Position numbers: made by a program. DNA of 64,000 nucleotides from an uncultured Alphaproteobacteria bacterium (lineage in GTDB: Bacteria > Pseudomonadota > Alphaproteobacteria > Rs-D84), in assembly GCA_944392565.1 (NCBI GenBank), contig CALXWX010000003.1:2008-66007 (forward strand). Direction: 5' to 3'. How positions within the stretch are numbered: position 1 is the stretch's first letter; each line of letters begins with the position of its first letter. Of the stretch, positions 54,001-57,000 are shown in pieces.

Positions 54001-57000
54001 CCATAGATCGCCACGGTCGCCATGCGCCCCCGCGACACATTAATAGAACACAATAAAAAATTAAGCACCACACCCAGTTCCCCTCTATGGAGGGGTGCCG
54101 CGCAGCGGCGGGGTGGTCAGAGAGTTCAAGAAAATATTGCCACGCTGCCACACCCTCTCTCTTGTCATTGCGAGCATAGCGAAGCAATCCAGCAGGTTAT
54201 GCACGCGCGAATGCGCGACTTTATTATGACTGGATCGCCACGGTCGCAATGCTCCCTCGCGATGAATCCGAGTATGTGAAAACAAGCGGCAGCGCAGTTT
54301 GAACAAATACGAGGATACCCGCAGGCGCAAGCCGAGGGAATAAAGAGTATGTGAAAACAAGCGGCAGCGCAGTTTGAACAAATACGAGGATACCCGCAGG
54401 CGCAAGCCGAGGGAATAAAGAGTATGTGAAAACAAGCGGCAGCGCAGTTTGAACAAATACGAGGATACGCACAGGGTACTGCGTACCCGAGCGACACATT
54501 AATAGAACACAATAAAAAATTAAGCACCACGCCAAGTTCCCCTCCGTTGGAGGGGTGCCGCGCAGCGGCGGGGTGGTCAGAGAATGCAAGATTGTGTCGC
54601 TTTCTCTGTAATTTCGTGGCGTGTTTGTTTTCTGTTATTACCCAATCTGGGGGATGGGGATAAATTATTATTTATACAATTGTTAAATTTGGACGCGTCG
54701 CGCGCAGGTTATTTAATGATTTTTCTTGTGCGGCACGGAACGCATCTGGATTCCATATTTGAAAACTGTTGCCGCGACCAACAAATATTGCAGTATCGGT
54801 AATCCCGGCATGTTTTAATAAATCGGCTGGTATAACAATTCGACCTGTTACATCAAATGCCAATGGGCGCGCATCTGCGAACAGCATCGCCGACAAATCA
54901 TCCAGTTCGCTGTCAAACACACCCATTTTATCGGTTGCCGCCGCCAGTTGTTCCATGCGCGACATTGATAAACCTTCGATACAATTGTGGGTAAATGAAC
55001 GGTATAAAACAACGCCTGCAAACTTTTCTGATGCAACAGAAGCACGGAAAGGTGCCGGCACAGATATACGACCCTTGGTATCCAAACGATTTTCATAAGA
55101 TGAGAGAAACAATGACATTTTTTTCTTCTTATGGGGCGTTCCTGCCCAGTTTCCTTTCCTGCTTCATATGAAATTTAGCACGGGCAAATTTGGTTGTCAA
55201 TGACAATTTATAATCATTTTATGGGATTTTATGGTTTTAACAGTAAAATAAAAATATTTTTAAATATTTTGCAAATATTTATATTTTGTTCTTGACCTGC
55301 GATTCGTTTTTGTTCTAAGATGTTTGTATAGACAAGGAGAAAAACAAAAAAAGTCCCAGAAAACCGCCAAAAAACCGGAATTCTGGTAAAAATAACAGTT
55401 AACAGAAAAATTCAAAATCGTTTTTTGTAAATACATCATGTACATACAATATTTTTGAATTTTTCAATAAAACCCATGAAAGGAGGGACCGCACCATGTC
55501 AAAAAGTATAAAAGAAATAATGATTGCACTGAACCAGGTTTTAACAACAACTGTTTGGGTTAATGAAGACAGACAGATTATATCGCTGGCGGATGAATTA
55601 CAGATTGGTCATAACAATGCGCCGCGTTCTATCGAAGACTTGCCGCGTCCGTCACTGGTTGGTGCGTATGTATCACTGCAAATTCGTACAGATAATTTTG
55701 ATGTTGCGGCGGAATCTTTGGAAACAAATGTTTTGGCATTGCGTGTAAAAGAAATGGTCTTTACAGAGGCAAAAAAGATTATGGATGCGGCATCTGGGGA
55801 CAGTGTTTCGCACATCGCACGCGCCGCATAATAAAAAATAAATGCCCATGCGGTTCCATTTTGGGCAATTTCAGTTTCTGGGAAACCAGAAGGAGGGGAG
55901 AAATCACCGGCAAGTAATTGCCGGTGATTTTGTTTAGAATCGCATCGCGGCGCGTATCATTGCGCTGATATTGTTATAATTATCACGCATTTGTGCATCA
56001 ATCCCGATACTGATTTCACCGTATTGATTGAATATCATGTTCAATTTTGCGCCAATATTGCCCGCCCAACGCGGCAGTTTTGTCCCGACAATTTCGTATC
56101 TGTTATTATTTACTGTGATATCAAATATATCATTATCGCTGTACATATCGTACGCCAGTCCCAATGTAATTGATGGCACAAACCGTATTTTGCCAAAGTC
56201 GAAACCATTATATGCAACTGTGGTATTTGTGTACGCAGTCCAGAAATTTAAGTTATCCCCATCTATTATCTGACCGGCATCATCGGTCGATGTTCGCCGA
56301 TGCACCAGTGTGTATTGTACACCGACCCCGGGGGTAATGTCCCAATCATATGATGATATTTTATATCCGATATCTGACCATGCGCCATATGTATAAACAG
56401 ACGAATTATTATCCAGGTGCAAATTTGCAACATTCTTGGTTTCGTGCATATCGGTACAGAACATTGTCGCCACGCCCCGCAATATTAAATCCCCAGGGTT
56501 GTATTTTATATATGCGACCCCACCATCTGTTGTTGCGCGAATATCCCGGGCCCAGTTATAGATTTTATCATACTGGAATGTATACGCCGCACCTAATGTT
56601 ATATCAGAAAAACCATATTCTGCGCCAACGCCGCCCCCGATACCGCGCATGTCAAATTTTGAATATTGTAATCCCGCATCCAGTTGTCCGATATTTCCAA
56701 TCACAGACGCCCAGATTTTCCCATTACCTGTATCGTATTCGTTGTGGGGACCACTGATTATATCATCCGTGCGCGATGTTAATTGTGTGCCAATAATTTG
56801 CATCAGTGGCGCGGGTGATGGCGCCAGTGCACTTAGTGCGCGAATATAACCGGCGGCATCTGTTTGCAACAGCGCGTTCATTTGCATGTATAATTCATGT
56901 TCTGTGGCATGTGATGCGGGTGGGGCGTCTTGCCATGCAGTTGCAGTATTCATATTGTTCTGGGTTCCACCAGCATCGCGAATAATATCATCGTATTCTG

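What the first reader, a model, noticed from the sequence alone, without database searches (positions are those of the whole stretch)
54006..54590. Nested repeat locus: ~180-bp dispersed element present twice, one copy split by a 75-bp x2.65 perfect tandem array; a third partial copy at 46516
The copy at 54006-54190 is intact. The second copy (54233-54590) has the tandem array (54270-54470) inserted exactly between ...CCCTCGCGA and CGACACATTAATAG.... The element contains a GC-rich hairpin (CCCCTCCGTTGGAGGGG, with an internal GCCGCGCAGCGGCG duplication absent from the 46516 copy) and the motif TGTCAT(T)GCGAGCATAGCGAAGCAATCC. The 75-bp units are identical to each other, implying very recent expansion, so this is a candidate VNTR. 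The unit has no stop codon in any minus-strand frame, which creates three overlapping phantom ORFs, but no plus-strand coding capacity. Function is unknown: REP/MITE-type element, small RNA or binding-site array.
Basis: seen in the sequence. Interest (0 to 1): 0.5.

Follow-up and report, generated by a model that had tools for sequence, protein, structure and literature searches.

The report
Strain-variable mosaic of palindromic repeats
A non-coding spacer between two genes of an uncultured gut bacterium is packed with small hairpin-forming repeats, one amplified in tandem, and its length differs between strains; this is an ordinary kind of bacterial repeat cluster, except that one building block is the end-piece of a widespread, apparently undescribed mini-element carrying a DUF559 nuclease gene.

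Summary
Window 53951-54591 lies in the 955-bp spacer between two convergent genes, a 791-aa gene and mraZ. The organism is a Candidatus Enterousia-like gut alphaproteobacterium.

The locus is a head-to-tail stack of short palindromic modules:
- D: a two-hairpin unit.
- E-hairpin-A: a ~105-nt inverted pair of TGTC-tagged REP-type units.
- T: the 75-bp unit.
- C: an A-rich linker.

Same-species metagenome contigs carry 40-, 410-, 800-, 880- and 955-bp versions of this spacer. The 880-bp version is identical to the window over 6.4 kb except for one T unit fewer.

T is not a foreign insert. Single T copies follow an A module at five or more other loci, and another locus has a 1.65-copy array with the same junction. 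Copy 1 here most likely lost T by deletion between GCGA microhomologies.

There is no Rfam match and no credible coding capacity. No transposase-like gene was found in 43 window ORFs.

D is homologous to the inverted repeats that flank DUF559 (Vsr-like) endonuclease genes in many bacteria. The D copies here therefore look like solo ends of such mini-elements.

Verdict: a real, non-coding, strain-variable REP/BIME-like mosaic with a nested minisatellite. It is ordinary in kind. The D-DUF559 link appears undescribed.

The parts
53712..53742 (.). Bidirectional intrinsic terminator (stem CCCGCC/GGCGGG at 53722-53737). It is shared by the 791-aa gene and, in 'empty' strains, by mraZ. It marks the left edge of the variable spacer.
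   Evidence: conserved in all alleles
53744..53902 (-). Remnant of the 3' end of a lost paralog of the 791-aa gene. It is an inverted duplicate of 53594-53647 and reads ..KLAIRACNPIITTCMRVN..WIVLSMGN*.
   Evidence: tblastn 21/35 identities, E 9e-10; inverted repeat I1, 87%; frame read
53951..53986 (+). D0: degenerate 3' half of a D module (GCAGCGGGGTGTGGTGGTCAGAACGGTCAAGAATGC). Left end of the repeat stack.
   Evidence: (family D5)
54006..54035 (+). A1: TGTC-tagged REP-type unit in reverse orientation, lacking its first CTG. It is fused directly to CACATTAATAG (T module missing).
54036..54071 (+). C1: A-rich linker CACATTAATAGAACACAATAAAAAATTAAGCACCAC.
54072..54132 (+). D1: two-hairpin unit (CCCCTC-TATG-GAGGGG, GCCGC-GCA-GCGGC, then GGGGTGGTCAGAGA). 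Homologous to the 5' inverted repeat of DUF559 cassettes.
54161..54192 (+). E1: TGTC-tagged REP-type unit (TGTC-ATTGC..GCAAT-CCAG). Left arm of the ~105-nt E-hairpin-A palindrome.
54201..54219 (.). Central variable hairpin of the E-hairpin-A element (CGCGC-GAAT-GCGCG).
54230..54265 (+). A2: right arm of the E-hairpin-A palindrome (CTGGATCGCCACGGTCGCAATGCTCCCTCGCGATGA).
54270..54419 (+). T units 1 and 2: two identical 75-bp internal units. Each is a long imperfect hairpin plus a small GGC-GCAA-GCC hairpin.
54420..54494 (+). Terminal T unit: the same first 49 nt, then the variable hairpin GGGTAC-TGC-GTACCC (54474-54488) and CCGAGCGA. This is the form found as a single copy at other loci.
54495..54530 (+). 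C2: second copy of the A-rich linker.
54531..54591 (+). D2: second full D module and right end of the stack. On the minus strand it is the first structured element downstream of the mraZ stop.
46507..46640 (+). Separate partial stack between a small HTH gene and a terminator. It holds the C' linker, D' with an 18-bp deletion of hairpin 2, an E'-like TGTCATGCGCGGCATAGCGTGGCAATC, and hairpin GCCGCGAACGCGAC followed by ACATTATG. A different species has an element at the orthologous site.

Best explanation
The locus is a non-coding, strain-variable pile-up of small selfish palindromic repeats, of REP/MITE type. They have accumulated in a dispensable spacer between two convergent genes of a Candidatus Enterousia-like gut alphaproteobacterium.

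**Composition.** The stack is built from at least three unrelated module families arranged in a fixed syntax, (C)-D-E-hairpin-A-(T)n-C-D:
- E and A are TGTC-tagged REP-type units. Together they form a ~105-nt inverted pair.
- D is a two-hairpin unit homologous to the terminal inverted repeats of small DUF559 (Vsr-like PD-(D/E)xK endonuclease) cassettes. The copies here are solo ends with no nuclease gene nearby.
- T is a lineage-specific hairpin module. It normally occurs once after A and is amplified here to 2.65 tandem copies.

**Shown.**
- The module anatomy and syntax.
- Dispersal over many loci.
- Five length alleles within one species.
- A copy-number difference on an otherwise identical background.
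- Absence of coding or known RNA signal.
- The D-DUF559 association.

**Inferred.**
- The stack grows and shrinks by recombination and slippage between its own repeated modules. Unequal exchange between D/D or A/A copies adds or removes ~230-330-bp blocks. Slippage changes T number. Microhomology deletion removed T from copy 1.
- New D copies originate from DUF559 cassettes acting in cis or trans.
- The cluster has no dedicated host function.
For: **Setting.**
- The stack is intergenic between convergent genes, with a retained terminator.
- The organism is identified from contig titles. Ca. Enterousia/Rs-D84 genomes are reduced, mostly under 1 Mb (PMC12306168).

**Polymorphism.**
- Contigs encoding the identical MraZ, with flanks 94-100% identical, have spacers of 40, 40, 40, 410, 800, 880 and 955 bp.
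- L005 equals the window minus one 75-bp unit, with 0 mismatches in 6447 nt.

**Modularity.**
- The same ordered modules recur in L004, L005, L008 and L017-L026.
- T occurs as a single copy after A in L017, L021, L023, L024, L025 and L026.
- T occurs as 1.65 copies with the same junction in L022.

**Palindromic nature.** Fold z-scores range from -2.5 to -3.8.
- E-hairpin-A has 13-nt terminal inverted repeats, TTGTCATYGCGAG.
- The hairpins vary in sequence but stay paired.

**No other function detected.**
- No Rfam hit.
- The phantom-ORF search returns only 13 similar phantom ORFs.
- No transposase, RAYT, DUF559 or GIY-YIG family in 43 window ORFs.

**D-DUF559 link.**
- D modules flank an in-frame DUF559 domain inside queA of sister species.
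- 68 of 120 DUF559 homologs end in the D-encoded tail NHPAL.GTPP.EGN.
- In 133 loci found with a D pattern alone, all 8 D(+)..D(-) pairs 350-530 nt apart enclose DUF559. Of 32 D copies next to a DUF559 hit, 15 are 5'-sense, 13 are 3' or overlapping and antisense, 4 are 3'-sense, and none is 5'-antisense.
- The same architecture occurs in cultured Sphingomonas and Synechocystis plasmids.

**E and A.** They match the published CGTC/TGTC-tagged REP description in tag, AT-start stem and CCA tail (PMC3733652).
Against: - No target-site duplications are visible around any module, so no transposition event is directly documented.
- No DUF559 gene or other candidate mobilising enzyme lies in the 64-kb window or in the same-species loci held.
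- D copies here are all in direct orientation, not the inverted doublets common elsewhere.
- Density is modest: 2 sites in 64 kb.
- The copy-number difference between the window and L005 could be a collapse in a short-read assembly. L005 is a SPAdes-style contig at coverage 8, and the 75-bp period exceeds metaSPAdes' default largest k-mer (55, from my own knowledge of the assembler).
- The near-invariance of the first 49 nt of T across loci could reflect recent spread or constraint. The latter would argue for a function.
- D(-) followed by a T-run lies just downstream of mraZ, so a co-opted role at the mraZ 3' end is not excluded.
Confidence: 0.75

Rival explanations
1. Co-opted RNA element. 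Read on the minus strand, D2 (a three-way junction) followed by TTAATTTTTTATTG acts as the transcription terminator or 3'-end stabiliser of mraZ in strains where the stack has pushed the original bidirectional terminator ~930 nt away. Alternatively, T or D encodes a small RNA.
For: - In the empty allele the mraZ stop lies ~10 nt from the shared terminator. In the window allele the first structured element after the stop is D2(-) plus a T-run.
- Every D(-) in this lineage is followed by a T-rich run.
- Terminator-like sites are enriched in the region: 7 found against 2.0 expected, three of them (54488, 54398, 54323) inside the T array on the minus strand.
- Hairpin 2 of D shows strand-biased wobble pairs, 16 G.T against 2 A.C.
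- The T unit folds better on the plus strand, z -3.8 against -1.4.
Against: - No Rfam family matches at E<=10, and no promoter-like site lies inside the stack.
- Strains of the same species do without the whole stack.
- D(-) plus T-run is a branched structure, not a canonical terminator, and the scan did not call it.
- The wobble and GNA-loop bias favours the D(+) strand, which is antisense to mraZ.
- Most copies lie between convergent genes, so orientation is uninformative.
Confidence: 0.12
2. Protein-binding array. Like enterobacterial BIMEs, which bind gyrase, IHF and Pol I, the repeated modules would be nucleoid or topology sites. The T array would tune the number of binding sites.
For: - Mosaic architecture and extragenic 3' location resemble BIMEs.
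- An HU/IHF-family gene is present in the window at 49385-49672.
- The T core is highly conserved across loci.
Against: - No binding motif was identified.
- Presence or absence within one species argues against a required site.
- Only 2 sites occur in 64 kb.
- The idea cannot be tested with sequence alone.
Confidence: 0.05
3. Decay product. The spacer is simply what remains of a deleted paralogous gene, and the repeats are degraded coding sequence rather than mobile modules.
For: A 53-codon remnant of a paralog of the neighbouring 791-aa gene sits at 53744-53902 on the minus strand. D0 and A1 are truncated at what looks like a deletion junction.
Against: - The modules recur, in the same syntax, next to unrelated genes: rpsO-pnp, rplI, rplU and others.
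- They have no homology to the 791-aa protein beyond the remnant.
- D is shared with distant phyla.
Confidence: 0.04
4. Assembly artefact. The tandem array, or the whole duplication, was produced by mis-assembly of short reads.
For: All data are metagenome assemblies. The only difference between the window and L005 is one repeat unit.
Against: - Independent assemblies from different samples and studies reproduce the stack (L004, L005, L007).
- A second locus (L022) has a tandem T with the same junction but different point substitutions.
- Units plus flanks form a consistent structure.
Confidence: 0.03

Closest known systems
CGTC/TGTC-tagged REPs of Alphaproteobacteria (Di Nocera et al. 2013, PMC3733652; includes Rickettsia RPE-4/RPE-6)
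   Same: - E and A begin with an unpaired TGTC, have a stem starting with AT, and end in a CCA(G) tail.
- They occur in an alphaproteobacterium with a reduced genome and lie outside genes.
- Canonical copies, such as TGTC-ATCCTGGGG-CTTGA-CCCCAGGAT-CCA, sit in the same stacks in other strains (L004, L017, L023).
- No dedicated transposase is known for the family.
   Different: - E1 and A in the window have only ~5 contiguous stem pairs and 12-20-nt interiors, against 8-9-bp stems and 4-5-nt loops.
- They are paired tail-to-tail around a variable hairpin as a ~105-nt unit, an arrangement described as rare for CGTC REPs.
- They are embedded in a fixed syntax with unrelated modules.
BIMEs (bacterial interspersed mosaic elements) of E. 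coli
   Same: - Extragenic mosaics of palindromic units and conserved linkers at the 3' ends of genes.
- A variable number of repeated blocks between strains.
   Different: - No sequence relation and no GTAG tag.
- D units are in direct rather than alternating orientation.
- No RAYT is seen.
- Binding of IHF or gyrase is untested.
BOX elements of Streptococcus pneumoniae (boxA-boxB(n)-boxC)
   Same: A modular element in which an internal module is tandemly repeated a variable number of times (A-T(n)-C here).
   Different: The sequence, host and module sizes are unrelated (boxB 45 bp against T 75 bp). This is an analogy of architecture only, recalled from my own knowledge and not tested.
REPIN-RAYT systems (REP doublets plus a single flanked HUH tyrosine transposase gene)
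   Same: For module D, a small nuclease gene is flanked by inverted copies of a hairpin repeat, and that repeat is far more abundant as gene-less singlets and doublets.
   Different: - The enzyme is a DUF559/Vsr-like PD-(D/E)xK nuclease, not an HUH Y1 transposase.
- The repeat unit has two hairpins and no GTAG tag.
- The cassette can sit in frame inside a host gene (queA).
EDxHD/Vsr-like homing endonucleases (I-Bth0305I; PMC3239194; grouped with VSR/DUF559 in PMC3424549)
   Same: It is a precedent that nucleases of the Vsr/DUF559 clan drive the spread of selfish DNA. The DUF559 cassettes show occupied and empty sites.
   Different: - The cassettes here are free-standing or in-frame ORFs bounded by structured inverted repeats, not encoded in an intron or intein.
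- Activity is untested.
- The closest solved relative is only the uncharacterised 3HRL.
Bacterial minisatellites / VNTR loci
   Same: Head-to-tail 75-bp units with identical copies and a copy number that differs between otherwise identical sequences.
   Different: The unit is itself a module of a dispersed element family, and the tandem form with the same junction occurs at more than one locus.

Membership tests
CGTC/TGTC-tagged REP superfamily | Unpaired CGTC (or TGTC/CCTC) tag at one end | tested here: met
   E1 is TGTC|ATTGC.. at 54163. In other alleles the reverse complement of A is TGTC|ATCGCGAG. Definition from PMC3733652.
CGTC/TGTC-tagged REP superfamily | Stem of 8-9 bp beginning with A-T pairs, loop of 4-5 nt, CCA tail | tested here: inconclusive
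   The AT start and CCA(G) tail are present. E1 and A have only ~5 contiguous pairs with 12-20-nt interiors. Canonical 9-bp/5-nt units occur in the same stacks in L004, L017 and L023.
CGTC/TGTC-tagged REP superfamily | Tens to thousands of copies per genome | not testable with these tools
   Only 64 kb of this genome is available, and it holds one E-hairpin-A and one E'. Copies were seen at >=8 other loci in related contigs.
MITE | Terminal inverted repeats bounding a short non-coding element | tested here: met
   E-hairpin-A has TTGTCATYGCGAG ... CTCGCRATGACAA in 12 distinct copies. Gene-less D(+)-15..26 nt-D(-) doublets occur in other taxa.
MITE | Target-site duplications | tested here: not met
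   The flanks of E-hairpin-A copies (CTCTC|...|AAAGC etc.) and of D copies show no direct duplication.
MITE | A related autonomous element encoding the enzyme | tested here: inconclusive
   For D, DUF559 cassettes are bounded by the same repeats in other genomes, but none lies in the window. For E/A and T, none was found.
BIME | Extragenic mosaic of palindromic units and conserved linkers, variable between strains | tested here: met
BIME | REP units of the GTAG type in alternating orientation; associated RAYT | tested here: not met
   There is no GTAG tag. D units are all direct. No Y1 transposase family was found in 43 window ORFs.
VNTR / minisatellite | Perfect or near-perfect head-to-tail units | tested here: met
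   TRF: period 75, 2.7 copies, 98% matches.
VNTR / minisatellite | Copy number differs between isolates | tested here: inconclusive
   2.65 units in the window against 1.65 in L005 with 0 other differences in 6447 nt. 0.65 in L021 against 1.65 in L022 at another locus. All are short-read assemblies, so collapse cannot be excluded.
DUF559-flanking inverted repeat (module D) | Core TTCCCCTCC-loop-GGAGGGGTG-GC hairpin-GGGGTGGT | tested here: met
   D1 at 54072-54132 and D2 at 54531-54591 align with the 5' repeats of DUF559 cassettes through GGGGTGGTYAGAGA. Pattern hits.
DUF559-flanking inverted repeat (module D) | Adjacent DUF559 gene or an inverted partner copy | tested here: not met
   There is no DUF559 in the window, and all D copies here are direct and solo. 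They are therefore filed as derivatives, not as a cassette.
Known structured RNA families (Rfam 15) | Covariance-model match | tested here: not met
   Only 4 tRNAs reach gathering score in the window. At E<=10 nothing overlaps 53951-54591.

The most novel reading that the evidence does not exclude
Module D would be the non-autonomous form of a widespread, so far undescribed class of minimal selfish elements. Each is a ~125-aa DUF559 (Vsr-like PD-(D/E)xK) endonuclease gene bounded by ~45-nt inverted repeats. Each repeat carries a conserved CCCCTCC/GGAGGGG hairpin and a hypervariable GC hairpin with GNA triloops.

Gene-less singlets and doublets of the repeat greatly outnumber the cassettes, as REPINs outnumber RAYTs. 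The cassette can also live in frame inside essential genes such as queA. On this reading DUF559 would be the missing 'driver' of a REP-like repeat family, probably recognising or cutting a strand-specific single-stranded hairpin. The window stack would be a fossil bed of its solo ends mixed with TGTC-REPs.
Probability: 0.5. Interest if true: 0.75.

Novelty: new variant of a known kind. Interest (0 to 1): 0.5.

Why it matters
**The locus itself.** It is a modest result. It shows that even sub-megabase genomes of uncultured gut Alphaproteobacteria (Ca. Enterousia, order Rs-D84) carry active-looking mosaics of palindromic repeats. These generate large length polymorphisms between strains, and they give a ready-made strain-typing marker in the T array and spacer length. 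They also create phantom ORFs that gene callers sometimes annotate.

**The wider point.** CGTC-type and untagged REP-like repeats have had no known mobilising enzyme. DUF559 is a very common domain of unknown function. The consistent DUF559-between-inverted-D architecture therefore offers a directly testable hypothesis for both problems. It has three supports:
- Empty doublets.
- In-frame insertions in queA.
- Footprints at the same queA site.

Cultured models are available for testing, namely plasmids of Sphingomonas parapaucimobilis and Synechocystis sp. B12.

Tried and rejected
- **Known RNA families.** The Rfam gathering scan of the whole window found only 4 tRNAs. The permissive scan of 53650-54750 gave only weak terminator-type hits at 53673-53934. 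Rejected.
- **Coding capacity.** The three minus-strand ORFs are read-through of a stop-free repeat. The homology search found only 13 proteins, all similar phantom ORFs from related contigs, with no Pfam domain. Rejected.
- **75-mer in public collections.** An exact 40-nt core was absent from JGI metagenomes and IMG/VR. This was uninformative, because the species is represented in ENA/Logan assemblies instead.
- **Promoter scan.** Nothing was found inside the stack.
- **Mobilising enzyme nearby.** Pfam on 43 of 52 candidate ORFs, plus tblastn with DUF559, found none.
- **Literature.**
  - A sequence-string search for GTCATTGCGAG returned only unrelated primer hits.
  - None of the 25 papers mentioning DUF559 links it to repeats, judged from titles and abstracts and from text searches of two of them.
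  - A search combining REPIN, RAYT and Vsr found nothing relevant.
- **Plasmid collection.** It holds only distant DUF559 relatives at 35-44% identity. Two were inspected, and both still have flanking CCCCTC-type hairpins.
- **Motif search.** It used the wrong spacer length and is not informative.
- **Extended D homology.** I considered that D plus its downstream ~35 nt is a decayed DUF559 5' coding end. The alignment supports homology only through GGGGTGGTYAGAGA, so this is left open.
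Full report
**1. Observation**

The sequence is as described. TRF reports a single strong array at 54270-54475: period 75, 2.7 copies, 98% matches, score 398. Units 1 and 2 are identical. Unit 3 shares the first 49-56 nt and then diverges.

A self-BLAST of 53900-54660 against the window gives three matches:
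- 54027-54131 with 54486-54591, 91.5% over 106 nt, E 8e-31.
- 53990-54035 with 54220-54262.
- A third partial copy at 46507-46640.

Nothing else in the 64 kb matches. The three overlapping minus-strand ORFs exist, and each plus frame of the unit has a stop.

Three corrections apply:
- The second copy contains only modules A, C and D. The TGTCAT...CAATCC motif occurs once.
- The 'internal duplication' is a second hairpin. The 46516 copy lost it through an 18-bp deletion between GGGGTG repeats, and its ortholog in another species keeps it.
- A degenerate D fragment lies at 53951-53986.

**2. Setting**

The stack lies in the 955-bp spacer between a 791-aa gene (plus strand, 51341-53716) and mraZ (minus strand, 54672-55118). 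The 791-aa gene ends at a bidirectional terminator at 53712-53742.

The first ~160 nt of the spacer (53744-53902, minus strand) is the 3' remnant of a lost paralog of the 791-aa gene (tblastn E 9e-10).

A pattern scan of species-representative genomes places the element in uncultured gut Alphaproteobacteria, including MAGs named Candidatus Enterousia. This lineage (order Rs-D84) is described as having reduced genomes, mostly below 1 Mb (PMC12306168).

Pfam scans of 43 of 52 candidate ORFs show housekeeping genes plus VirB8/9/10. They show no transposase, RAYT, DUF559 or GIY-YIG family.

**3. Population variation**

An exact-protein look-up of MraZ returned seven metagenome contigs. Their flanks are 94-100% identical to the window. 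L007 ends inside the stack, so it gives no spacer length.

| Contig | Spacer length | Notes |
|---|---|---|
| L001, L002, L003 | 40 bp | terminator only |
| L006 | 410 bp | gene remnant, D0 and one A |
| L004 | 800 bp | different module mix, no T array |
| L005 | 880 bp | as the window, one T unit fewer |
| window | 955 bp | |

L005 is the window with exactly one 75-bp unit removed, with 0 mismatches over 6447 nt. The spacer is therefore hypervariable within one species, and the T array differs on an otherwise identical background. The caveat is that these are short-read assemblies.

**4. Anatomy**

Comparing the window with 20 related loci resolves the '180-bp element' into modules that recur in a fixed order: (C)-D-E-hairpin-A-(T)n-C-D.

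- **D (~60 nt).** AAGTTCCCCTCC-loop-GGAGGGG, then a GC hairpin (GCCGC-GCA-GCGGC), then GGGGTGGTCAGAGA.
- **E and A.** They are reverse-complement relatives sharing TGTCATYGCGAG...GCRATCCAG. With a variable central hairpin they form a ~105-nt imperfect palindrome whose ends are 13-nt inverted repeats.
- **T.** ATCC, then a 49-nt near-invariant core, then a hairpin, then CCGAGCGACACAT.
- **C.** An A-rich linker.

All modules fold into extended hairpins or a three-way junction, with z-scores of -2.5 to -3.8 against shuffles.

**5. The tandem array**

A homology search with the phantom ORF returned 13 proteins, all phantom ORFs from related contigs. Fetching their contigs showed two things:
- T is a regular dispersed module. 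Single copies follow an A-type unit in L017 (rpsO-pnp spacer), L021, L023 (after rplI), L024, L025 and L026.
- L022, which is the L021 locus in another sample, has 1.65 copies with the same internal junction ...CCCGCAGGCGTAAGCCGAGGGAATAAA|GAGTATG.

CGACACAT always follows T. The direct A|CACATTAATAG junction of the window's copy 1 is found only at this locus. The simplest reading is therefore that copy 1 lost T by deletion between the GCGA at the end of A and the GCGA at the end of T. It is not that copy 2 gained a foreign array.

Identical units 1 and 2 do indicate a recent gain or homogenisation. However, the duplicated form as such is older than this array.

**6. What the modules are**

E and A fit the published description of CGTC-tagged REPs (PMC3733652):
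- The tag is often TGTC.
- The stem starts with AT.
- The tail is CCA.
- The family predominates in Alphaproteobacteria, including Rickettsia RPE-4/6.
- No dedicated transposase is known.

Their stem and loop dimensions are atypical. Canonical 9-bp/5-nt units sit in the same stacks in other strains.

D leads somewhere new. In sister species, D modules flank a complete DUF559 domain inserted in frame after residue ~33 of QueA.

Searching with the DUF559 domain alone gave ~2000 homologs at ~60% identity, from metagenomes and from MAGs of several phyla:
- 68 of the top 120 end in NHPAL(T/A)GTPP.EGN, which is D(-) read in frame.
- 21 have N-terminal extensions ..SPPLEGCPQGGVV-R(D/N)T.., which is D(+) read in frame.

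Conversely, a D-only DNA pattern found 13 IMG/VR stretches and at least 120 JGI metagenome stretches. In these loci:
- All 8 D(+)..D(-) pairs 350-530 nt apart enclose a DUF559 ORF. A ninth DUF559 lies between two same-strand D copies 462 nt apart.
- Of the 32 D copies within 150 nt of a DUF559 hit, 15 are 5'-sense, 13 are 3' or overlapping and antisense, 4 are 3'-sense, and none is 5'-antisense.
- 'Empty' doublets, D(+)-15..26 nt-D(-) and D(-)-12..50 nt-D(+), are common.
- 78% of D copies have no DUF559 in the locus.

Distant DUF559 genes on plasmids of cultured Sphingomonas and Synechocystis are likewise bracketed by CCCCTC-type hairpin repeats. In Sphingomonas the arms are 27 nt and 93% complementary.

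Among the 120 closest QueA homologs:
- 2 carry the cassette.
- About 114 are empty.
- 4-5 carry short in-frame footprints at the same site.

The nearest solved relative of the domain is the uncharacterised 3HRL protein. The Vsr/DUF559 clan includes a bona fide homing endonuclease family (PMC3424549; PMC3239194).

The window's D1 and D2 align with the cassette 5' repeats through GGGGTGGTYAGAGA. No DUF559 gene lies in the window.

**7. Structural oddities**

Hairpins inside the modules vary in sequence while staying paired.
- **T-terminal hairpin.** It takes at least five forms next to a core that differs at 3 or fewer positions.
- **D hairpin 2.** It has 130 distinct sequences in 270 copies, with 91% Watson-Crick pairs.
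  - Its non-canonical pairs are 16 G.T against 2 A.C on the D(+) strand (p 0.0013).
  - 57% of its distinct loops are GNA triloops on that strand.

This strand bias points to a structure formed in single-stranded nucleic acid of the D(+) strand. GNA-loop mini-hairpins are known, from my own knowledge, to be exceptionally stable in DNA. Whether this reflects recognition by the nuclease, intrastrand template switching that homogenises palindromes, or an RNA is unresolved.

**8. Mechanism proposed**

*Shown:*
- A non-coding mosaic of palindromic modules.
- Dispersal of the modules.
- Strain-level presence, absence and length variation.
- Nested tandem amplification.
- D as the end-repeat of DUF559 cassettes.

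*Inferred:*
- The stack accumulates in a neutral spacer next to a terminator.
- It expands and contracts by unequal recombination between its own D/D and A/A copies, by slippage in T, and by microhomology deletions (D0, A1 and loss of T in copy 1).
- D copies derive from DUF559 cassettes.
- There is no dedicated host function.

Confidence is about 0.75.

The main rival, at about 0.12, is co-option at the RNA level: D2(-) plus a T-run as the new mraZ terminator or stabiliser, or an sRNA. Binding-site array, gene-decay and artefact readings are less likely. The reasons are given under rival explanations.

**9. Novelty and score**

As a locus this is a new variant of a known kind, a REP/BIME/BOX-like mosaic with a minisatellite. 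A specialist would not be surprised by it.

The part that could matter is the D-DUF559 association. I could not find it in the literature held here. It would give both a function for a very common DUF and a driver for an orphan class of REP-like repeats.

Interest is 0.5 overall. The novel reading has a probability of about 0.5 and an interest of 0.75 if true.

Noticed in passing
L011 5935-7560 (+); L014 4529-6295 (+); also L101, L013, L010: In sister species, queA is one uninterrupted ORF of 541-588 aa. After residue ~33 (..SRMLVV) it carries an in-frame insert of D-module peptides, a full DUF559 domain and further D-module peptides. Among the 120 closest QueA homologs, 2 have the insert, about 114 are empty, and 4-5 have short in-frame footprints at the same site (P0173, P0223, P0224, P0148, P0238).
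   Followed up: partly
L034-L166 (metagenome and IMG/VR loci); L167, L168 (plasmids): DUF559 genes across unrelated bacteria are bracketed by inverted copies of a CCCCTCC/GGAGGGG two-hairpin repeat. Gene-less doublets of the same repeat are more common. This resembles REPIN-RAYT but with a Vsr-like nuclease. One example is the Sphingomonas parapaucimobilis plasmid NZ_CP155755.1, where the cassette sits between two transhydrogenase genes with 27-nt arms 93% complementary.
   Followed up: partly
window 53744-53902 (-), with 53594-53647 (+): A 53-codon remnant of the C-terminus of a paralog of the neighbouring 791-aa gene lies in inverted orientation right next to the shared terminator. A convergent paralog was evidently lost here. 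Strains L001-L003 lack even the remnant.
   Followed up: partly
window 46008-46033, 46653-46678, 47837-47862, 49674-49699: Four near-identical 26-nt palindromic bidirectional terminators (AAAACACCGGCAAATGCCGGTGTTTT, 0-3 mismatches) lie within 4 kb, with none elsewhere in the window. A related terminator sits at 53712-53742. This may be another small dispersed repeat family.
   Followed up: no
window 54672-55118 (-): mraZ is monocistronic here. It is followed by a terminator or by the repeat stack, not by rsmH and the cell-division genes as in most bacteria.
   Followed up: no
D hairpin 2 in 270 copies (window 54097-54109, 54557-54569 and loci L008-L166); T hairpin at window 54474-54488: Hairpins inside otherwise near-invariant modules are hypervariable yet almost always perfectly paired. 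D hairpin 2 shows strand-biased G.T wobbles (16 against 2) and 57% GNA triloops. This suggests a strand-specific single-stranded structure, or palindrome homogenisation by template switching.
   Followed up: partly
L016 ~4170-4440: Another species has a ~90-bp module (..TTCCCGCCTTATCCACCCCACAAATACATTCGTATTTGCGGGG..GCGGGAATGACAAAAATTATTGCTGAAAGGATAT) repeated three times in tandem. Tandem amplification of single modules is therefore recurrent in these stacks. The unit contains a DnaA-box-like TTATCCAC.
   Followed up: no
window 27765-32535 (-): A VirB10/TrbI-, VirB9/CagX- and VirB8-like type IV secretion gene set is present. The VirB10-like gene carries a 27-bp x2.2 in-frame tandem repeat at 29639-29697.
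   Followed up: no
window 55934-58639 (-) and 61904-63379 (+): A 901-aa protein with Chlamydia polymorphic-membrane-protein repeats and a Protochlamydia outer-membrane-protein (Pom) homolog are present. These surface proteins are typical of host-associated bacteria, in a gut alphaproteobacterium with a reduced genome.
   Followed up: no
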